The position numbers and the translations under genes were made by a program. Of a stretch of 63,019 nucleotides of DNA, positions 1-63,019 are shown one piece after another. Origin of the DNA: a virus (Duplodnaviria; Caudoviricetes); the IMG/VR virus record IMGVR_UViG_3300039668_000014, positions 1-63,019 of that record. The stretch is one strand, 5' to 3'. Position 1 is the stretch's first letter. The number at the start of each line of letters is the position of its first letter. A model generated the notes under the pieces. That model worked only from the letters and a program-made list of their open reading frames with translations. It did not search any database and was not told where the DNA came from.

Positions 1-83
1 GCTACGGCTACGGCTACGGCGACGGCTCCGGCGACGGCTCCGGCTACGGCGACGGCTCCGGCGACGGCTACGGCTACGGCTCC
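1..83 (+). repeat. GGCTAC/GGCGAC/GGCTCC hexamer coding repeat
   Basis: Tandem hexamers visible directly. Confidence 0.95.
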
Positions 84-27423: not shown

Positions 27424-27732
27424 CTAGTATCTTTCCTCATGCGCTTTTTTGTACGCTCGTTGCCCCTTAATGCCCCCGTGATATTCGGTAAGACCCTTTG
27501 TATAATCACGCCGAATCTGGCTTTTCTGGCCACGCTTAATGGCCTTGAGTTTAGCAGACTTATTACTATGAATGTCCCTACTAATGGCTGCACGATGAAA
27601 CACCCGCCCTTCGGCAGCTATTATCTTTCGTTGTTCGCGCCAGGGCTTTGGTAAGTTGGTATTGCCGCGCATCTGACGCGCTGCCTTTGACTGCGCGGGC
27701 GAAATCCGCCCCTTGTCGTCATGGTGTGGCAT
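27424..27732 (-). CDS. small basic protein (paralog B)
   Basis: K/R-rich; HHDDKG..PAQSKAAR. Confidence 0.55.
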   Translation of the reverse strand: MPHHDDKGRISPAQSKAARQMRGNTNLPKPWREQRKIIAAEGRVFHRAAISRDIHSNKSAKLKAIKRGQKSQIRRDYTKGLTEYHGGIKGQRAYKKAHEERY

Positions 27733-30700
27733 TGCTTTTTCCCTTTGGCACCATCTTCTGCACCTTCTTGGTAGTAGTTGTCTTGGAGCCGGTCTTGCCC
27801 TTAGCCTTGGCAGTCGATGTGGTCGTGGTGTCGCCCTGTTCCATGCTGGGCTGATTGGACTTCTCGACATCGAGCGAGGCCCAGTCGTGGTCCATCTGAT
27901 GCTTGGTTTCCAGAAATGCGCGCCGTAGTTCGTTTTCGTTAATACCCATGTTATGCAGCCGTTCCATGGCCTCAGTCACCGCGGTCAACCTATTGTCGTC
28001 CGCGCCCATAGCCTCAAGGTCGCGTAATTCTTCCTTGCCCTTGGACTTGGCGCGGTTCTCGGCCAGCTTGACCATGAGTTCCTGCACCTGCTGGCTGAGA
28101 TTAGCGTTCTCTTGCTGCAGGTTGGCAATCATTGGACCCGTCTTGCTGTCGTCCAACAGCCACGGCATGTTCTGGGCGATGTTGCGCTTTAAGCGTTCAG
28201 CAATCTCGTTGGCGAGTGGGAAATCACCAGCACGGAACCCAAGGTCGCCCATGACCTCCATCAGCTCGGGCCGCGCCTTGATAATCTCTATGAACGCATC
28301 CCATGCCGCTTCGCGCTGGGTCTGATAGGCGGGGCCAACATCGGCCTCAATGGCGAACTTGCCAATCTTCGGATTGAACAAAACCCGTATTTCATCGGCA
28401 TCGGGCGATGCGTCGGTCTGCTTGATATAAGCTTCCTCGCCATCCGGATTGACTTCGATATTACGGATGGTCCCGTCCTTGGCCATGGTCTGGATGACGC
28501 GGGCGGTATCATAGATATGCGGCGCTAAATCCATCAGCAGTACGGCGGTATGGCGTATCGCCAGCATTTCGCTCTGCACAAAGTCGAAATTAACTACTTC
28601 CTCGGTCTGATGGCGCTTCTCGATCGCCATAGGGGTGCGTTCCAAGGAAGGATTGACTTGCTGTGCAACCTGAATGCCGCTCGCCAATTCCATTTCCGAA
28701 GCAGCAATACGTAGTCCCTCCAGAAAACCTTGCGCTGGGGTTGGCCCCTCAGCCCGCGCTGGCGGGGGGATAGGTTGGCCTTCGTCATCAACATGACGGA
28801 AAGCGAGATATGCCGCGTTCTGAGTGTTCGCCTTTGCCCATGCCGTTTCATTGCCCTCAACGGCAGCGGAGGCAACAACCCATGGAGTCTTGGTCTGTAA
28901 AGCAACAACCTCGACCTCCCCAGAACTGTTATGCGTCGGGACCATTGATGGGCCAGCTAGAAATAGGTGGGACGGCGCATCAACCACCAAGCATTTAGTC
29001 GGCACACTCGGCACTTCCGTAATCGAGATAATACGGTGTCGGCAGGTGCGTCGTGCATGGAACTTCTGCGGTAGACGCGCCTGTTTCCGCGCCAAACCAA
29101 ACGGCATGACCTCCTGACGCATTGAGAATGCAAAACGATATGATTCTTGCGTCTGATAGGTTTTGCCATTTGGGAATTTACGTAGAGCGCCAGCAGTCTT
29201 TGTAAAAGACGCCTTAATCCCCAGACTGTGGAGCAACTCCGCAAAATCTTCCGCCAATCTATCGCTTATCGTGACAAAAACGCATTGCCCTTGCTTCGTG
29301 CAGCAGCCGTCGGTATCCATCAACCCCTGCAACAATTGCTCACGTTGATGCTGCGACGAGCGCAAATACTGCGCTGGAATATGCTTGTTGCTTAAGACAT
29401 TAAGCGCCTTAAGAGATTTTCTAATCCCATAAATCGCAAGGGTTTCGGCGCAACCATTTCCCTTCTGGCGGCCGACACGATAGCCGCAATCCTCTAAATT
29501 CTTCTGCATGGCATCGGCGTCAGCAAAACCTGACGTAATCACTGGCTGATAACTATTACCGTCACCAAGCCATGCCCCGAGTACGTAAGGATGCAGCGGT
29601 AACTCAATATTGGAAAGCTGAAGCGGTTTTGTTGCCCATATAAAGTGCCTTTCTGGAACCAACTCCGCCGTGGTAATCGTTTTCTTCGACCAATCCCAAG
29701 TCGCCGCCTTTCGCTTACCGCGTTCCTCTACCGTCCATAAGTGCCCCTCTCCCGCAACGATATCGGAACCATCATCGAATCTAACCTGATAGCATTTGCG
29801 ATTTATAAAGGTTGGGCTGATGCCGACAACTGCGGTTGGCTTGCCCTCATCGCTCAGCACAACATCGCCGACCTGCACCGCCCCCATCGTCGTCCAGCCG
29901 CCAGGAACCGGCAGCGGTGTATCCAAAGATAAATCGTTGTAATTGTACATCCGCTGCGGGTCTTTGAGTGCGCGAACAATGCCAGCCCGATGCAGTCGGC
30001 TTTCGACTTTCTTTTCCCGCCCCGGCATGCGCACAATCGGGATGAAATGCCCCTTGCGCTCCTTGTCCTCGTCAATGATGCGGTCGCCAAGGATCTTGTA
30101 CCATTCCAATTGGCGGTCCTTGACGTCGCGTTCCTTGTAGTCGATGCCCTGCTTTCCCTTGGAATATTCATCCAGAATCTTGCGGGCGAACTTGGGTATT
30201 TCCGACAAGCGCCCAGTCCAGCTAGTGCCGCTTTCATCCTCGATGTAAATCAGTGTCTCTTCCTTGACGACGATGCGGTAATATTCCGCAACACGCACTG
30301 CATCATTGCGAATCCAGTCGTCCTTGTCGTCTATCGACGGTGACCGCGCCGGCATCGGCAGGCCGATATCCGGATGCAGCCGCCTGAATTCCTTGCGGTT
30401 ATATTCCTTGAATATGAAGGCCCACATCGAATCCGAACCGTCGACCTTGTCCAGGCTCAGGTCGCAATCGAGATAGACATTCATCGGGTCGAGTGGTTCG
30501 ATCTTCAGTTCCTGGTCGAAACTCTCATCGTCCACATAATCATGAACGATGTGCCAATAGCCCAGACCGCCGTTTAACTGGTTTTCCTTGGCGGTGCCGA
30601 AGATGGCCTCGAAGTTGGAAATATACTCGATATGGCGGATAAGCTCCTGCCATACCTGCGCGGCGTCATAGCTGACCTTTTCACCCACCGGCTTGATACG

Positions 30701-31000
30701 CGGTTCGGGCCGGTTCTTCTTCGACTCGTTGGCCAGCTTTTCGACAATGACCGAGGTGCGATTGATGGTCAGGCATGGCCTGTTATTCTGGTCGCGATCT
30801 TCCTTGACCGCATCGGGCCATTGCCAGCCATTATCGGCGTCAGCGTAGCGGAATTTGGTATCGTCGATATAAAGCCGCCGCCAGCCGTTCTCCCAATCCT
30901 GGGATCGCTTAAAGCGTTCCTTGGCCTCCAGCAACAGACGCTGTGTCGGGTCGGCCGGCTCGGGCTGGTCCGGTACCGTGGGATAGGCGGAAACCGCCAT
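27719..31000 (-). CDS. portal protein (P22-like) with intein
   Basis: QWP...RPCLTIN, GGLGYW, KDPQRMYNY, GPAYQTQR; follows TerL. Confidence 0.9.
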   Translation of the reverse strand: MAVSAYPTVPDQPEPADPTQRLLLEAKERFKRSQDWENGWRRLYIDDTKFRYADADNGWQWPDAVKEDRDQNNRPCLTINRTSVIVEKLANESKKNRPEPRIKPVGEKVSYDAAQVWQELIRHIEYISNFEAIFGTAKENQLNGGLGYWHIVHDYVDDESFDQELKIEPLDPMNVYLDCDLSLDKVDGSDSMWAFIFKEYNRKEFRRLHPDIGLPMPARSPSIDDKDDWIRNDAVRVAEYYRIVVKEETLIYIEDESGTSWTGRLSEIPKFARKILDEYSKGKQGIDYKERDVKDRQLEWYKILGDRIIDEDKERKGHFIPIVRMPGREKKVESRLHRAGIVRALKDPQRMYNYNDLSLDTPLPVPGGWTTMGAVQVGDVVLSDEGKPTAVVGISPTFINRKCYQVRFDDGSDIVAGEGHLWTVEERGKRKAATWDWSKKTITTAELVPERHFIWATKPLQLSNIELPLHPYVLGAWLGDGNSYQPVITSGFADADAMQKNLEDCGYRVGRQKGNGCAETLAIYGIRKSLKALNVLSNKHIPAQYLRSSQHQREQLLQGLMDTDGCCTKQGQCVFVTISDRLAEDFAELLHSLGIKASFTKTAGALRKFPNGKTYQTQESYRFAFSMRQEVMPFGLARKQARLPQKFHARRTCRHRIISITEVPSVPTKCLVVDAPSHLFLAGPSMVPTHNSSGEVEVVALQTKTPWVVASAAVEGNETAWAKANTQNAAYLAFRHVDDEGQPIPPPARAEGPTPAQGFLEGLRIAASEMELASGIQVAQQVNPSLERTPMAIEKRHQTEEVVNFDFVQSEMLAIRHTAVLLMDLAPHIYDTARVIQTMAKDGTIRNIEVNPDGEEAYIKQTDASPDADEIRVLFNPKIGKFAIEADVGPAYQTQREAAWDAFIEIIKARPELMEVMGDLGFRAGDFPLANEIAERLKRNIAQNMPWLLDDSKTGPMIANLQQENANLSQQVQELMVKLAENRAKSKGKEELRDLEAMGADDNRLTAVTEAMERLHNMGINENELRRAFLETKHQMDHDWASLDVEKSNQPSMEQGDTTTTSTAKAKGKTGSKTTTTKKVQKMVPKGKSNATP
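28928..29935 (-). mobile_element. class 3-type intein with LAGLIDADG endonuclease (336 aa)
   Basis: DLSLDTPLPVPGGWTTMG...GHLW...LGAWLGDG...LQGLMDTDG...TKCLVVD...VPTHN/S. Confidence 0.9.
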
Positions 31001-56508: not shown

Positions 56509-57437
56509 TCGGCCGCCTCACTCATTTCGCTAAATAAATTAGTAAAATCGGCCCTTCCTTCGCGTTGGAATATCTCACCATAGAGCTCGTATGATGCTTT
56601 GCGCACAATGTCATAGAAGATCGGGGGCTTTGCGCTATGCTCGGTGACGGGGGCTTCGAAATGCGTGGCAATGCTGTCCGACCGAGTACGCAATTCGCCG
56701 CGGACTCCGAATAGGACGTGCTCGGTTGAATTGCGGAAATACGACCCAAGGCCCCAACGTGGCTTAACCCAGGTCAGAACCGTTTTATGTTGGAAACCCC
56801 AGCGCGCCATAAGCTCAACGGCGCGCGTCATAAAATTATTGGTTGTCCACAAATACAGATGACAATTATCTTCAGCCCATTGGGCCACATCGAGCGCCAA
56901 TAGCTGCGCGTGGGTCATCGTGGCATAACCCGGCGACGCGCGGCCAGCGATCGATAGCCATTCGTAGTCCCAGGGCGGATCGATCACGAGAGTGCGGAAT
57001 CGGCCCATGCGTGGAACGAGCGCACGTACCCGCATCTCATCGCGCGCCTTGGAAATAAGACGGTTTTCTTTGGCCACATCCTTCCGCTGCATTTCGGGAC
57101 GAATAGTTCCATCGTCTATCTTAGCTTGGAAAACATCGTCCGGCAGACGGGTGAGTTCGGCTAACGTACCCCAATGGGGCGGCAAAATTCCAACATGTTG
57201 GAGTTTTACCAAGCGTTCATCCGCGGCAATTCGCATTAAGGCGGCAGACGTGCTTTTTTTGAAAGGCAATTCTGTTTCAATCAATTTCATCCATTCGCCA
57301 TGCCCTAGCTCTTCTTTCGCGGCGATAAGCAGGCGGCCACATTCGATGATGCCCTCAAAACTTGATTGCCACGCAGTTCGAATCCGATCTGCCCATAATG
57401 ATGCGGCTATAGGCATGGTCTTCAACGCGTTCTCCAT
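56505..57437 (-). CDS. MT-A70 family adenine methyltransferase with DUF3102-like N-domain
   Basis: IDPPW, HLYLWTTN, WGF, TWVK, EHSAKP; GRLLIAAK..LGHGEW. Confidence 0.88.
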   Translation of the reverse strand: MENALKTMPIAASLWADRIRTAWQSSFEGIIECGRLLIAAKEELGHGEWMKLIETELPFKKSTSAALMRIAADERLVKLQHVGILPPHWGTLAELTRLPDDVFQAKIDDGTIRPEMQRKDVAKENRLISKARDEMRVRALVPRMGRFRTLVIDPPWDYEWLSIAGRASPGYATMTHAQLLALDVAQWAEDNCHLYLWTTNNFMTRAVELMARWGFQHKTVLTWVKPRWGLGSYFRNSTEHVLFGVRGELRTRSDSIATHFEAPVTEHSAKPPIFYDIVRKASYELYGEIFQREGRADFTNLFSEMSEAAE

Positions 57438-57612
57438 ATACCCCTCCCCTCCCCTCCCGCTCCCGCGGTGGAAGGTTTAAAACCACCAGGCTTGCTCCAC
57501 TTTACTTCGCTTAGAAGCTGCTAAGAGGTTGTCCGAGGGTTGAGTAACCGTTTACTCTTTGCCCGACGTCTTGCTCCTAACTAGCCGCTAGTTCCTTTGG
57601 CGTTTCGAAAAT

Positions 57613-58116
57613 TCAAATTGTCGGTTTGTAGCCCTCCCTGATTAAAGCCTGGGCCAGCTTGTCGTGGCGCATGCCACGCAAGGCTGCTTGATGGCGTTGG
57701 GTCTTGGTTACTGCAGGATAGCTCTTGGCCGCCGCGGCCGCTCTTCGCTTGAGCAGCGACTTCATGCCACTTTCACCGTGGAATTTCGTGGCGCCAAGCG
57801 CCTTGTTGGAAACTTGCCGCCCGCGGGGGTGTGGAACCTTGTAGTACGAGCAATAGCGGGTCAGGCCGTAAAGCACTGAGGTCCTGTCGGCGTCCAGAGC
57901 CTTGGCTATAACCGATGTGGTGGCAGTGGTCTCGGAACAGGCGCGGTAATAGAACTCGAATCGGGCGGCGGATATAATGCCGTGGCGGCGCCAGCAACGT
58001 ATATCCTCGAGGGATATATCATATTTCTTGATTATTTCCCGTAATATAGTCCATAATGCGGGAACGCTATTGCTTTTTGGGGAATTAGAATGTAAATACT
58101 CTTTACATATTTCCAT
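57613..58116 (-). CDS. DnaA C-terminal-like HTH protein
   Basis: AARFEFYY...IAKALDADRTSVLYG. Confidence 0.6.
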   Translation of the reverse strand: MEICKEYLHSNSPKSNSVPALWTILREIIKKYDISLEDIRCWRRHGIISAARFEFYYRACSETTATTSVIAKALDADRTSVLYGLTRYCSYYKVPHPRGRQVSNKALGATKFHGESGMKSLLKRRAAAAAKSYPAVTKTQRHQAALRGMRHDKLAQALIREGYKPTI

Positions 58117-58271
58117 GGCGTGCCCTAACACGTTGTGGACCGCTCTCAAGGTGAGAGCAGGGCGCCGAGGGAACCCAGCCCTTCGGCGCCTTCTAATTTG
58201 GCACGAGTCAATGGCGTTTGCAAGCACTAGGGCTAGTAGTATCCCGCAAAGTGGTATACTATGTCTAGTAC

Positions 58272-58415
58272 ATGACCCAACGGGCCATATTCACCATTCG
58301 GCTCGAAGCGCCGCCAGGTGCCACCGACATCCACGCCCTCCGCGCAATCCTGAAAACCCTATTAAGGCGATTTGGCTTCCGCTGCCTTGATGCGCGGGAA
58401 GAGCCGGCAGAATAA
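58272..58415 (+). CDS. small hypothetical protein (47 aa, not in the ORF track)
   Basis: MTQRAIFTIRLEAPPG...LRAILKTLLRRFGFRC. Confidence 0.5.
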   Translation: MTQRAIFTIRLEAPPGATDIHALRAILKTLLRRFGFRCLDAREEPAE

Positions 58416-58488
58416 ATAATGGCTCCGTAGCGCATGTTTGCTATTGACAAGGCCATTATCCCTGTTATTCGTAATATTAGATAAGCGC

Positions 58489-58578
58489 GGCGTGGCTGGG
58501 CTAGGCCCGGCAGGGTAGGGCGCGGCGCGGCTGGGCAGGGCAAGGCCAGGCAGGGCGTGGCTAGGCAAGGCAAGGCAA
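58489..58578 (+). repeat. GGY-NN pentamer array 1 (18 units; putative guide RNA)
   Basis: NN = GT TG TA CC AG AG GC GC TG AG AA CA AG GT TA AA AA AA. Confidence 0.9.
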
Positions 58579-58620
58579 GCGATGAAGAAGCGGCGGCATA
58601 AGATTAAACGAGTTCGACGC

Positions 58621-58745
58621 GGCTCGGCCGGGCGCGGTGCGGCCGGGCGGGGCCGGGCGGGGCCTAGCAAGGCTGGGCCGGGCGGGGCTTGGCACGGCTG
58701 GGCAAGGCAGGGCACGGCCCGGCACGGCGGGGCTAGGCAAGGCAA
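58621..58745 (+). repeat. GGY-NN pentamer array 2 (25 units; putative guide RNA)
   Basis: NN = TC CG GC GC CG GG CG GG CT AA TG CG GG TT AC TG AA AG AC CC AC GG TA AA AA; one AGC variant. Confidence 0.9.
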
Positions 58746-58765
58746 GCAACTTTTAACCATGGGAG

Positions 58766-59371
58766 ATGACTATGCTGGACGTGCTGACAAGCAAGGCACT
58801 CGATATCGTAACGAGAAAGGTCGTTCTGGTCGGGCTCACCGACATCATGATGGACAGATATCCGGGGGACAACAACACCAAGCTGGAGCCGCACCAGAAG
58901 CTCTATTTAGAACCGGGCAATTCCAGAATTATTGGAATTCCGGCGCTGAATATTATGTCGTTTCTTTCGGCGCACAACACAAATTCTGCACCGAAGCGCC
59001 TACGCGACAAGCGAAAATATAAAGACCTAGCCAACGCAATGCTGTCGTTTGTGTCAATACGGGAGCAATTTATTCCATTAGTGCGTGCTGGCAAGCCTAT
59101 CGTCTTTGGCAAGTTCGATGCCGACAAGGACGAGAAAAGCGGTTGCTATGTCCACCGCAGCGTGGCGCGGCTGGACAAGGGAATACCCAACCCGAAGGTA
59201 AGGCCGGTTATTCCATTGGAATGGGTGCTGAACTTCACTGTGGATATCTTTCCAAATCGGGAAATCAAGGAACAGGATATTATTAACCTATTCGATGAGG
59301 GCGGCCGGGCGATCGGTCTCGGGACTTTCCGGGGGGTCTTCGGAAAATTCAGAATCGAGGAATGGGCTTAG
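58766..59371 (+). CDS. stand-alone RAMP/Cas7-like protein
   Basis: N-terminal strand LVGLTDIMM, GIPALNI, RPVI..W.L.F, C-terminal Gly-rich loop GGRAIGLGTFRGVFGKF. Confidence 0.65.
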   Translation: MTMLDVLTSKALDIVTRKVVLVGLTDIMMDRYPGDNNTKLEPHQKLYLEPGNSRIIGIPALNIMSFLSAHNTNSAPKRLRDKRKYKDLANAMLSFVSIREQFIPLVRAGKPIVFGKFDADKDEKSGCYVHRSVARLDKGIPNPKVRPVIPLEWVLNFTVDIFPNREIKEQDIINLFDEGGRAIGLGTFRGVFGKFRIEEWA

Positions 59372-59379
59372 CGGAGCGA

Positions 59380-59459
59380 GGCGCGGCTGGGCATGGCGTG
59401 GCGGGGCGAGGCTGTGCCGGGCAAGGCCGGGCATGGCTCGGCGAGGCAAGGCAAGGCTA
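59380..59459 (+). repeat. GGY-NN pentamer array 3 (16 units; putative guide RNA)
   Basis: NN = GC TG AT GT GG GA TG CG AA CG AT TC GA AA AA TA; one TGC variant; degenerate in-phase units from 59365. Confidence 0.9.
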
Positions 59460-59465
59460 GCAAGT

Positions 59466-59675
59466 ATGACTGTTCGCACCATTCGAGTGGTCCCGCATCA
59501 AGAAGGCTATCGCCTTTATACCGAGAATGGCGAGATCGATGAGGTTGTGGAAGCCAATGCCTTTTTACGGGAAGCAGTGGGTTCCCGCTTACTTGGCTGC
59601 TACTTTCGTGCCGAGCGCAGTGTCGATGGCTGGACTTTCAAATCGCGATGGCGCGGCCGACCTTTATATTGGTGA
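59466..59675 (+). CDS. small hypothetical protein
   Basis: MTVRTIRVVPHQEGYRLY... directly after array 3. Confidence 0.5.
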   Translation: MTVRTIRVVPHQEGYRLYTENGEIDEVVEANAFLREAVGSRLLGCYFRAERSVDGWTFKSRWRGRPLYW

Positions 59676-59697
59676 ACTTAACCATGGGAGAAAGCAG

Positions 59698-60438
59698 ATG
59701 AGTCAGTCCGACCAAACCGACCAGATTTGGGCAGCATTAGCAGCAGCCCAAGGCGCGATGAAAAACGCCGCATTCGATGCCGTAAATCCACATTTCAAGA
59801 ACCGCTATGCCACGCTAGCATCGGTGATAGACACCGCGCGAGAGGGATTATCCAAGGCCGGCATTGCCGTCACCCACACCAATGATGTCGATGGCGAGCA
59901 GGAATATCTCGTTACCACGCTCGGCCATAAGAGCGGGCAGTGGATTCAAAGCCGCCGCCGCGTGCCTGCTGGACTGAAGGCGCAGGAATATGGCGCTTGG
60001 CTGACCTACAATCGGCGCTATGCACTATGCGCCTTGATTGGCATATCGGCCGACGAGGACGATGACGGCAATGTCGCCCAAGCGGCCAGCAATGGCAAGC
60101 AGACTGTAAAAGAGAAATACGGCACGACCCCCCAAGACATATACGAGGACGAGATTCAATATGATGTCGATGGCAATCCCATCGACAATATCCCTTATGG
60201 TAATCCCGCGCTGCAGCAAGTCAGAGGCACAACATCCAAGAAGGAATACGAGACCTTGCAATCAGAAATGAACACCATCACCAGCATAAAGGCCTTAAGG
60301 GAATGGGCAAATCTGACACCGGTCAAGGATCGGGTGCAAACTCTGACAAACGAGCACCAAGAATACATTCGCCGCTTGTACTCAAGCCGCATGAGGGAAC
60401 TCGGCCGGTTAGGCGAAGCAGCCCTCAAAACAGCCTAA
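59698..60438 (+). CDS. erf: ERF-family ssDNA annealing protein
   Basis: NPHFKNRYATL, HKSGQW, GAWLTYNRRYAL, DEDDDGN. Confidence 0.88.
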   Translation: MSQSDQTDQIWAALAAAQGAMKNAAFDAVNPHFKNRYATLASVIDTAREGLSKAGIAVTHTNDVDGEQEYLVTTLGHKSGQWIQSRRRVPAGLKAQEYGAWLTYNRRYALCALIGISADEDDDGNVAQAASNGKQTVKEKYGTTPQDIYEDEIQYDVDGNPIDNIPYGNPALQQVRGTTSKKEYETLQSEMNTITSIKALREWANLTPVKDRVQTLTNEHQEYIRRLYSSRMRELGRLGEAALKTA

Positions 60439-62881: not shown

Positions 62882-63019
62882 CGGTATTGCGAGGCGAGCC
62901 AAGTAAGCTCTCCGGCTACGGCGACGGCTCCGGCGACGGCTACGGCGACGGCTACGGCGACGGCTCCGGCGACGGCTCCGGCTACGGCGACGGCTACGGC
63001 TACGGCGACGGCTCCGGCT
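62872..63019 (+). CDS. N-terminal part of Gly-Tyr/Gly-Asp repeat protein (runs off the end)
   Basis: MEVTVLRGEPSKLSGYGDGSGDGYGDG... Confidence 0.75.
   Translation, partial: MEVTVLRGEPSKLSGYGDGSGDGYGDGYGDGSGDGSGYGDGYGYGDGSG

What the first reader, a model, noticed from the sequence alone, without database searches (positions are those of the whole stretch)
58484..59462. Lone RAMP/Cas7-like gene flanked by three GGY-NN pentamer arrays: candidate RNA-guided system with a gapped code
Seen: three arrays (18, 25 and 16 units) in strict 5-nt phase. GGC (rarely GGT/AGC/TGC) is constant and the following dinucleotide varies without periodicity, so each array spells a different message. All three end in a conserved run of GGCAA/GGCTA units followed by GC, like a shared handle. 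Arrays 1 and 2 precede, and array 3 directly follows, a 201-aa gene with a RAMP-like layout and C-terminal Gly-rich loop (GLGTFRGVFGKF). No cas1/cas3 or CRISPR repeat-spacer array is present. A 5-nt period cannot be a codon repeat, and simple slippage would homogenise the NN. Inference: each array is a small RNA on which the protein polymerises one subunit per pentamer, binding GGC and displaying NN, so the NN string specifies a (possibly gapped) nucleic-acid target such as a rival phage or host gene. From memory this resembles recently reported phage GGY/NN-repeat (VIPR-type) systems; I cannot verify that here.
Basis: partly seen in the sequence, partly recalled or inferred. Interest (0 to 1): 0.95.

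Follow-up and report, generated by a model that had tools for sequence, protein, structure and literature searches.

The report
Phage VIPR guide-RNA system, known kind
This phage carries a small Cas7-like protein gene flanked by three five-base-repeat guide-RNA arrays, a further example of the VIPR RNA-guided DNA-silencing systems first described in 2026, and what its guides aim at is still unknown.

Summary
Three same-strand GGC-NN pentamer arrays of 18, 25 and 16 units flank a 199/201-aa gene and are the only such arrays in the 63-kb phage record. VIPR is described in 2026 bioRxiv preprints.

- **Homology:** a 56-sequence family profile hits only 'SUSP1 Vipr protein' (PDB 36pp) in the PDB at a significant level, E 1.4e-9. 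hhalign gives 97% probability.
- **Fold:** the AlphaFold model (pLDDT 95.8) matches Csm3/Cmr4/Cas7 RAMPs, Z up to 12.3.
- **Linkage:** 84 of 86 homologous loci carry same-strand arrays beside the gene. Their NN strings differ and their ends are A-rich.

Differences from the SUSP1 reference are GGC instead of GGT units, no structured 3' tail, no conserved accessory gene, and Thr at the G-loop Asp position. I found no natural target, no self-target and no RNA data. The VIPR type could not be assigned because figures and supplements were unavailable. This scan has noted VIPR loci many times on other DNA.

Verdict: a new member of a known kind, of low to moderate interest.

The parts
58484..58580 (+). 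vrRNA array 1. It has 18 GGY-NN units (58489-58578), one degenerate 5' unit (AGCGC) and a terminal GC. It ends GGCTA GGCAA GGCAA GGCAA GC.
   Evidence: terminal A-rich units are clade-wide
58616..58747 (+). vrRNA array 2. It has 25 units (58621-58745), a degenerate 5' unit (GACGC) and a terminal GC. It ends 13 nt before the vipr ribosome-binding site. An internal AGC unit (unit 10, ...GGCCT AGCAA...) might mark a boundary between two guides; this is unproven.
58772..59371 (+). vipr gene, encoding a 199-aa RAMP protein (201 aa if read from the ATG at 58766). The G-loop is residues 184-195 (GLGTFRGVFGKF). The thumb Arg is R146. Numbering follows the 201-aa frame.
59370..59461 (+). vrRNA array 3. 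It has 16 units (59380-59459), two degenerate 5' units that overlap the vipr stop codon, and a terminal GC. It ends 4 nt before the ATG of the next ORF (59466).

Best explanation
This is a VIPR (Viral Interference Programmable Repeat) system on a complete or near-complete P22-like tailed-phage genome.

Shown here:
- The gene at 58772-59371 encodes a Vipr protein, a minimal single-RRM RAMP related to Cas7/Csm3.
- The three flanking GGC-NN arrays have the anatomy of its guide RNAs (vrRNAs).

Inferred from the SUSP1 experiments, not tested here:
- The arrays are transcribed with the surrounding early operon and cut out.
- One Vipr protomer binds each pentamer and sequesters GGC between its thumb and G-loop.
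- The protomers expose the NN dinucleotides, which pair with double-stranded DNA in an NN-x-NN-x register that skips one target base per unit.
- The resulting filament blocks transcription of the bound gene.
- The likely targets are competing mobile elements such as other phages, prophages or satellites in the same, unknown host.

The last 3-4 units (GGCTA/GGCAA) plus GC probably serve as the constant 3' handle, in place of the structured tail of SUSP1-type vrRNAs.
For: 1. Sequence homology. phmmer of the protein against all PDB chains returns one hit at E<=10, 'SUSP1 Vipr protein' 36pp_D (E 0.11). A profile of 56 diverse homologs (A1) raises this to E 1.4e-9; the next hits are at 0.85. The same profile finds one place in the SUSP1 genome (E 8.8e-12), inside CDS AVU07_agp039. 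hhalign gives probability 97.2% and E 3.9e-11.

2. Fold. The AF2 model has pLDDT 95.8 and pTM 0.89. Foldseek gives 56 PDB matches at E<=0.001, and every listed row is a CRISPR effector complex. In the VIA-align wide search 48 of the 50 rows shown are CRISPR-Cas entries. The top row is 9g9a_D at Z 12.3. Rows titled Csm3, Cmr4, Cmr6 and Cas6 follow.

3. RNA-contact residues. SUSP1 R138 (thumb) and R179 (G-loop) align with R146 and R189. R189 is invariant and R146 nearly invariant in the family. W178 aligns with F188.

4. Array-gene linkage. 84 of 86 homologous loci (75 viral, 11 genomic) have at least one same-strand GGY-NN array within 500 nt of the gene; the exceptions are L029 and L065. The only isolated-phage homolog, Burkholderia phage vB_E436, also has one. 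The scanner recovers the published one-upstream, three-downstream vrRNA layout of SUSP1 as a positive control.

5. Guide-like variability. In 135 distinct arrays GGC/GGT make up 2372 of 2604 units, while all 16 NN dinucleotides occur. No 8-unit stretch of the window's guides matches any relative's array better than 12 of 16 positions.

6. Context. The record is a phage, with terminase, portal, P22-type coat and tail fibre genes. It has no Cas1 and no CRISPR array.

7. No self-target. The best matches are 21/36, 28/50 and 21/32, the same as under the wrong skip rules. The preprint likewise reports no self-targeting.

8. Weak, indirect support. NN composition across the clade correlates best with codon positions 1-2 of window genes in the sense orientation (r 0.62, against 0.00 and 0.10 for the other phases).
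Against: - No natural target was found. Seven exact seed scans of viral contigs (8-9 units) and one of metagenome contigs gave 0 to 29 hits each, and none extended convincingly. The best was 29/36, in a upp gene of two contigs, with the skipped base not at the wobble position.
- Guides of two relatives found nothing in 201 and 121 genomes of their host genus and family.
- The 1-nt skip rule is therefore untested for this clade (one search was uninformative).
- Sequence similarity to SUSP1 Vipr is detectable only over the C-terminal 56-65 residues.
- The G-loop Asp (D177), which reads G1 and whose Ala mutant is dead in SUSP1, is Thr here.
- No structured 3' tail is predicted; fold z-scores are +0.4 to +1.7.
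- No Rfam family matches.
- No conserved accessory (vap) gene is present.
Confidence: 0.85

Rival explanations
1. It is a VIPR-derived system that works by different rules from SUSP1. Possibilities include a different number of skipped bases, RNA rather than DNA targets, very long footprints, or a role within the phage's own recombination/replication module rather than silencing of rivals.
For: - No 1-nt-skip target was found.
- The G1-reading Asp is replaced by Thr.
- There is no pseudoknot-type tail and no vap gene.
- Arrays are longer than the 9-16 units reported for the SUSP1 clade: 16-25 units here and up to 89 in relatives.
- The locus is usually embedded among exonuclease, Erf-type annealing and SSB-like genes.
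Against: - The protein has the same length and RAMP architecture as SUSP1 Vipr, and the thumb Arg and G-loop Arg are conserved.
- According to the preprint's text, all seven described VIPR types use GGY/NN or related units.
- My target search used exact seeds only, so it had low sensitivity.
- No self-target appears under any of the four skip rules.
Confidence: 0.1
2. It is a decaying or orphaned locus. The protein is a Vipr homolog, but the arrays are relics that are no longer expressed or matched to any target.
For: No target was found. A few units are degenerate: AGC, TGC and GGT.
Against: - The gene is intact and its model is confident.
- 56 of the 59 units are GGC or GGT.
- The conserved terminal units are intact in all three arrays.
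- Relatives keep the same arrangement.
Confidence: 0.03
3. The arrays are slippage-generated microsatellites or G-rich structural DNA that are unrelated to the neighbouring gene.
For: They are G-rich tandem repeats, which in general can arise by slippage.
Against: - Slippage would homogenise the NN positions. Here all 16 dinucleotides occur while GGY stays fixed.
- Arrays sit on the gene's strand in 84 of 86 loci despite unrelated NN strings.
- No other such array occurs in the remaining 62 kb of the window.
Confidence: 0.01

Closest known systems
Type II VIPR of Escherichia phage SUSP1 (Vipr = NC_028808 AVU07_agp039, PDB 36pp; bioRxiv 10.64898/2026.04.26.720920 and .720927)
   Same: - Phage-borne, ~200-aa single-RRM RAMP with a G-loop and thumb.
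- Profile-level homology.
- GGY-NN pentamer arrays on the gene's strand, both upstream and downstream.
- No cas1 and no CRISPR array.
- No self-targets.
   Different: - Units are GGC here, against mostly GGT in SUSP1.
- Arrays have 16-25 units, against 6-15 called in SUSP1.
- SUSP1 arrays are each followed by a ~40-nt tail reported to form a pseudoknot. Here arrays end in A-rich units plus GC and abut the next start codon, with no predicted structure.
- There is no vap1 homolog.
- D177 is Thr and W178 is Phe.
- Sequence similarity is confined to the C-terminal third.
VIPR systems in general (seven types, 667 representative loci; also 99 period-5 clusters in bioRxiv 10.64898/2026.10.21.760802)
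   Same: It meets the published working definition: a Vipr homolog plus YNNGG repeats of at least 4 units, mostly in viruses or proviruses.
   Different: I could not assign a type. Classification rests on figures and supplementary data that I could not see. The absence of a conserved accessory gene fits the 'stand-alone gene' loci mentioned in the methods, but that is not a type call.
Burkholderia phage vB_E436 hypothetical protein XRX04321.1 (PQ789831.1) and prophage copies in Paraburkholderia and Candidimonas genomes
   Same: These are the closest named relatives: 66.5% identity for the phage and 59-67% for the genomes. Each has 11-17-unit arrays ending in GGCGA/GGCAA units next to the gene.
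   Different: They have different NN strings and a single upstream array in vB_E436. The gene is annotated only as hypothetical, so these are unrecognised VIPR loci in the records.
Class 1 CRISPR backbone RAMPs (Csm3, Cmr4, Cas7)
   Same: They are the best structural matches (Z 9-12), with the same RRM, G-loop and thumb layout.
   Different: There is no CRISPR array, no cas1 and no other cas genes in the record. The guide is a 5-nt-periodic repeat rather than a spacer with a repeat handle. The locus is not a member of any CRISPR-Cas type.

Membership tests
VIPR system | Protein homologous to characterised Vipr | tested here: met
   Profile against PDB: 36pp_D 'SUSP1 Vipr protein', E 1.4e-9, next hit 0.85. 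hhalign 97.2%. One match in the SUSP1 genome, inside agp039. The alignment covers only the C-terminal 56-65 residues.
VIPR system | RAMP fold with RRM core, glycine-rich loop and thumb | tested here: met
   Model pLDDT 95.8. 48 of the 50 VIA rows shown are CRISPR-Cas entries, top Z 12.3. Foldseek rows are all CRISPR complexes. The G-loop is GLGTFRGVFG. The beta-hairpin at 128-149 carries R146, which aligns with the SUSP1 thumb R138.
VIPR system | Tandem GGY/NN (YNNGG) pentamers, at least 4 units, beside vipr on its strand | tested here: met
   18, 25 and 16 units. The same holds in 84 of 86 homolog loci.
VIPR system | GGY conserved while NN is hypervariable among relatives | tested here: met
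   GGC/GGT make up 2372 of 2604 units, and all 16 NN dinucleotides occur. No guide is shared with relatives: the best 8-unit match is 12/16.
VIPR system | Invariant 3' tail after the repeat tract (structured, with a pseudoknot in the SUSP1 clade) | tested here: inconclusive
   A conserved end exists: the last three units are AA, GA or TA in most arrays, and 92 of 142 arrays end in a run of at least 3 such units. No separate structured tail is present, with fold z-scores +0.4 to +1.7. Arrays 2 and 3 abut the next gene.
VIPR system | Accessory vap gene (typical, not universal) | tested here: not met
   The downstream 69-aa ORF has no tblastn hit in 86 loci and no similarity to SUSP1 vap1. The commonest non-vipr neighbour family, an exonuclease, occurs in only 15 of 88 loci and on either side of the gene.
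VIPR system | GGY-contacting residues (SUSP1 H17, R138, D177, W178, R179) | tested here: inconclusive
   R138 aligns with R146 and R179 with R189 (conserved). W178 aligns with F188. D177 aligns with T187, which is Thr in the family consensus. H17 was not aligned.
VIPR system | vrRNAs expressed and bound by Vipr | not testable with these tools
   No sequencing run was listed for the locus.
VIPR system | Natural targets at >=80% NN match under the 1-nt skip rule, and no self-target | tested here: inconclusive
   No self-target was found. No convincing external target was found with exact 8-9-unit seeds. A mismatch-tolerant search of whole collections was not possible.
VIPR system | Viral or proviral location without a CRISPR array or cas1 | tested here: met
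   Phage structural genes are present. The record is classed as a virus, 100% complete by CheckV as reported by the tool. There is no Cas1 and no repeat-spacer family.
CRISPR-Cas class 1 (Cas7/Csm3 family) | Association with a CRISPR repeat-spacer array and other cas genes | tested here: not met
   The similarity is in fold only.

The most novel reading that the evidence does not exclude
This large, mostly metagenomic clade (1866 proteins at E<=1e-3) may be a VIPR subtype that the seven-type scheme does not describe. Its distinguishing features would be:
- no accessory gene;
- GGC-specific units, with Thr replacing the G1-reading Asp;
- no structured tail, the filament end instead being set by built-in constant A-rich units (GGCRA x3-4 plus GC);
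- arrays co-transcribed inside the phage recombination operon (Erf, exonuclease, SSB) and butted against start and stop codons;
- uninterrupted tracts of up to 89 units in relatives.

If so, vrRNA 3'-end definition and processing would work differently from SUSP1.
Probability: 0.15. Interest if true: 0.45.

Novelty: new member of a known kind. Interest (0 to 1): 0.25.

Why it matters
The locus adds one well-delimited natural VIPR system, with three or four guides, from an uncultured P22-like phage. It shows that the clade is abundant in metagenomes yet annotated only as 'hypothetical protein', including in Burkholderia phage vB_E436 and in Paraburkholderia and Candidimonas prophages. The contrasts with SUSP1 (GGC units, no pseudoknot tail, no vap, Thr for Asp in the G-loop) are useful natural variation for anyone defining the minimal requirements of VIPR guides. 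It does not open a new question, because the system class, its code and its structure are already in print.

Tried and rejected
**Target hunting**
- Full guides and all 10-unit sub-guides against the 86 relatives' loci (630 kb) under skips 0-2 gave nothing above noise. The best full-guide scores were 23/36, 30/50 and 22/32.
- All 145 distinct arrays of the clade against all loci plus the window, under skips 0-3, gave no clear excess for any rule. The few 18-19/20 hits under skip 1 came mostly from one low-complexity array.
- Viral-contig seed scans. Array 1 units 1-9 gave 0 hits. The 8-unit seeds gave 8, 5, 10, 10, 3 and 15 hits. None extended beyond the seed.
- A metagenome seed scan (array 1, units 6-14) gave 29 hits. 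The best was 29/36 in two contigs, inside a uracil phosphoribosyltransferase-like ORF with the skipped base at codon position 1. I judged it chance.
- Array 2 units 1-10 were never seeded in a collection.
- A Paraburkholderia prophage guide found nothing in 3 host genomes or in 201 genomes of the genus. The vB_E436 guide found nothing in 121 genomes of the family. These genomes are samples, so the result is 'not found in those searched'.

**Other checks that gave nothing**
- Pfam found no family above threshold for the protein. PHROGs gave only phrog_4652, of unknown function, at E 2.6e-6.
- Rfam found no match in 57400-60000.
- The promoter/terminator scan found nothing placed to serve the arrays. 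A -10-like TAATAT at 58472-58477 is my own reading and is unsupported.
- No sequencing run, RNA or DNA, was listed for the locus.
- NCBI-sourced close homologs carry no names, so the host remains unknown.
- I checked for an exact terminal overlap of the record and found none.
- I considered and dropped a homo-oligomer prediction (complex prediction). SUSP1 filaments form on RNA, and a pass would not have changed the verdict.

**Limits from unavailable material**
The figures, tables S1-S3 and data S1-S4 of the VIPR preprints were not available. I therefore cannot say which type this is, or whether members of this clade are among the 667 representative loci.

Full report
**What is in the sequence**

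Reading 58200-59700 and cutting it in 5-nt phase shows three tracts of GGC-NN units on the + strand. A scanner that scores GGY in every phase on both strands finds exactly these three arrays in the whole 63,019-base window:
- 58489-58578, 18 units;
- 58621-58745, 25 units;
- 59380-59459, 16 units.

Twenty shuffles of the window never scored above 5, against 14.5-23.5 for the real arrays. Four of the 59 units depart from GGC: two GGT, one AGC and one TGC. Each array ends in GGCTA/GGCAA units followed by GC, and each is preceded by one or two degenerate units.

Arrays 1 and 2 lie upstream of the ORF 58766-59371, and array 3 lies immediately downstream of it. The GGGAG ribosome-binding site favours the ATG at 58772, giving 199 aa, the length on record. 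Array 2 ends 13 nt before that ribosome-binding site. Array 3 starts on the stop codon and ends 4 nt before the next ATG.

**What the protein is**

- Pfam gives nothing above threshold. PHROGs gives only an unknown-function family.
- The only PDB chain found by phmmer at E<=10 is 'SUSP1 Vipr protein' (36pp_D, 202 aa), at E 0.11.
- The family is large: 1866 proteins at E<=1e-3 in the word-indexed search and 255 representatives at 50% identity.
- A profile of 56 diverse full-length members (A1) hits the same PDB chain at E 1.4e-9, with the next hits at 0.85.
- The profile finds a single place in the SUSP1 genome, inside CDS AVU07_agp039. hhalign gives 97.2% probability.
- The alignment covers the thumb-to-G-loop third of the protein. 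SUSP1 R138 and R179 align with R146 and R189, W178 with F188, and D177 with T187. The roles of these residues come from section 5 of the cryo-EM preprint.
- The AlphaFold model is confident, with pLDDT 95.8.
- Its best structural matches are backbone RAMPs of type III, IV, I and VII CRISPR effectors. Foldseek gives 56 matches at E<=0.001, all listed rows being CRISPR complexes. In the VIA-align search 48 of 50 rows are CRISPR-Cas entries, with top Z 12.3 and named Csm3, Cmr4, Cmr6 and Cas6 rows.

**Are arrays and gene linked?**

I fetched 75 viral and 11 genomic loci that encode relatives at 52-84% identity. In 84 of the 86, at least one GGY-NN array lies on the gene's strand within 500 nt. 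The exceptions are L029 and L065, and in L065 the gene is cut by the contig end.

Across 135 distinct arrays near the gene, lengths run from 7 to 89 units with a median of 16. GGC or GGT makes up 2372 of 2604 units, and all 16 NN dinucleotides occur. The last three units are strongly biased to AA, GA or TA. 92 of 142 arrays end in a run of three or more such units. None of the window's guides is shared with a relative.

The same scanner run on the SUSP1 locus recovers one array upstream of vipr and three downstream of the next gene. This is the layout reported from small-RNA sequencing, so it serves as a positive control.

**Context**

The window is the whole virus record. The tool reports it as 100% complete by CheckV and linear. 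It encodes terminase, portal, head-closure, P22-type coat and tail-fibre proteins. It has no tRNA, no Cas1 and no CRISPR-like repeats.

The VIPR locus sits in an early-type module:
- upstream on the other strand, a DnaA-C-like HTH protein and an ORF carrying a DPPW motif, which I read as a DNA methyltransferase (my reading, not tested);
- downstream, a 69-aa ORF and an Erf-family annealing protein.

The 69-aa ORF is not conserved next to vipr in any of the 86 loci and is unlike SUSP1 vap1. Clustering all neighbouring ORFs shows no accessory gene shared by more than 15 of 88 loci. The commonest neighbours are an exonuclease, Erf-type proteins and what I read as an SSB. This clade therefore looks like a stand-alone vipr plus arrays.

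**How it most likely works**

The mechanism is taken from the literature, not tested here. I read these parts of the preprints:
- 10.64898/2026.04.26.720920: Results and methods sections 18, 20, 26 and 27;
- 10.64898/2026.04.26.720927: sections 5 and 6;
- 10.64898/2026.10.15.759431: abstract and section 17;
- 10.64898/2026.10.21.760802: passages only.

In SUSP1, one Vipr protomer binds each pentamer. GGY is flipped out and held by the thumb and G-loop. NN pairs with double-stranded DNA while every third target base is skipped. Binding represses transcription. Natural targets are competing satellites, prophages and other VIPR loci. By homology I expect the same here, with the GGCRA...GC end acting as the constant handle.

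**What I could not show**

- No self-target exists under any skip rule, which matches the preprint's control.
- I found no external target. Local searches of relatives' loci gave noise. Exact 8-9-unit seed scans of the viral and metagenome collections gave only hits that did not extend. Guides from two relatives with named hosts found nothing in samples of the host genus and family. These searches need perfect seeds or cover few genomes, so they are weak negatives.
- No sequencing run was listed for the locus, so expression is untested.
- Clade-wide NN composition correlates best with codon positions 1-2 in the sense orientation (r 0.62). This hints at coding-sequence targets but is confounded by a general purine bias.

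**Differences from the reference system**

- Units are GGC rather than GGT.
- Arrays have 16-25 units, against the 9-16 reported for the SUSP1 clade.
- There is no ~40-nt structured tail: the downstream stretches fold no better than shuffles.
- There is no vap gene.
- Thr replaces the G1-reading Asp.

Whether these features define one of the seven published types cannot be told without the figures and supplements.

**Verdict**

The class, its code and its structure have been in print since April 2026. A later survey reports 99 period-5 array clusters. This scan has already noted VIPR-type loci 774 times in at least 504 genomes. I rate it a new member of a known kind, with interest 0.25.

Noticed in passing
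window 1-81 and 62913-63019: Both ends of the record carry the same 6/12-nt coding repeat (GGCTAC/GGCGAC/GGCTCC, reading G-Y-G-D-G-S). There is no exact terminal overlap of 11-200 nt. The assembly probably broke inside a repeat-rich gene of a circular or circularly permuted genome.
   Followed up: partly
window 58755-58768 and 59680-59693: The motif TTAACCATGGGAGA, which includes the ribosome-binding site, occurs before both the vipr start and the likely Erf start at 59698. This suggests a shared translation-initiation or processing signal in this operon.
   Followed up: no
window 59466-59675 (+): A 69-aa ORF sits directly after array 3. It has no Pfam or PHROG match and no counterpart beside vipr in 86 relatives. 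It overlaps the long reading of the Erf ORF, whose Erf domain starts at residue 57-69 of that frame.
   Followed up: partly
L003 3944-4388, L006 1294-1573 and 2286-2630: Relatives carry uninterrupted GGY-NN tracts of 89, 56 and 69 units with few internal handle-like runs. They may be staggered multi-guide arrays of the kind named in the preprint's fig. S18 legend.
   Followed up: no
L035, L036, L037, L064 (3877-3946) and L087 = Burkholderia phage vB_E436 (3877-3946): L035 and vB_E436 carry nearly the same 14-unit guide, differing only in two of the last four units. L036, L037 and L064 have a 14-unit array at the same offset, but I did not read their units. In vB_E436 the vipr gene and a directly following 451-aa gene are annotated as hypothetical. 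No target was found in 121 genomes of the family.
   Followed up: partly
window 27719-31000 (-): The 1092-aa ORF matches a portal PHROG over residues 18-355. It matches terminase-large-subunit and primase PHROGs over about residues 353-696.
   Followed up: no
clade-wide arrays (L001-L086): The NN positions are purine-rich (G 1406, A 1318, C 828, T 816). CT, TA and CC are the rarest dinucleotides. This could reflect avoidance of pairing with the GG scaffold, or the composition of targets.
   Followed up: partly
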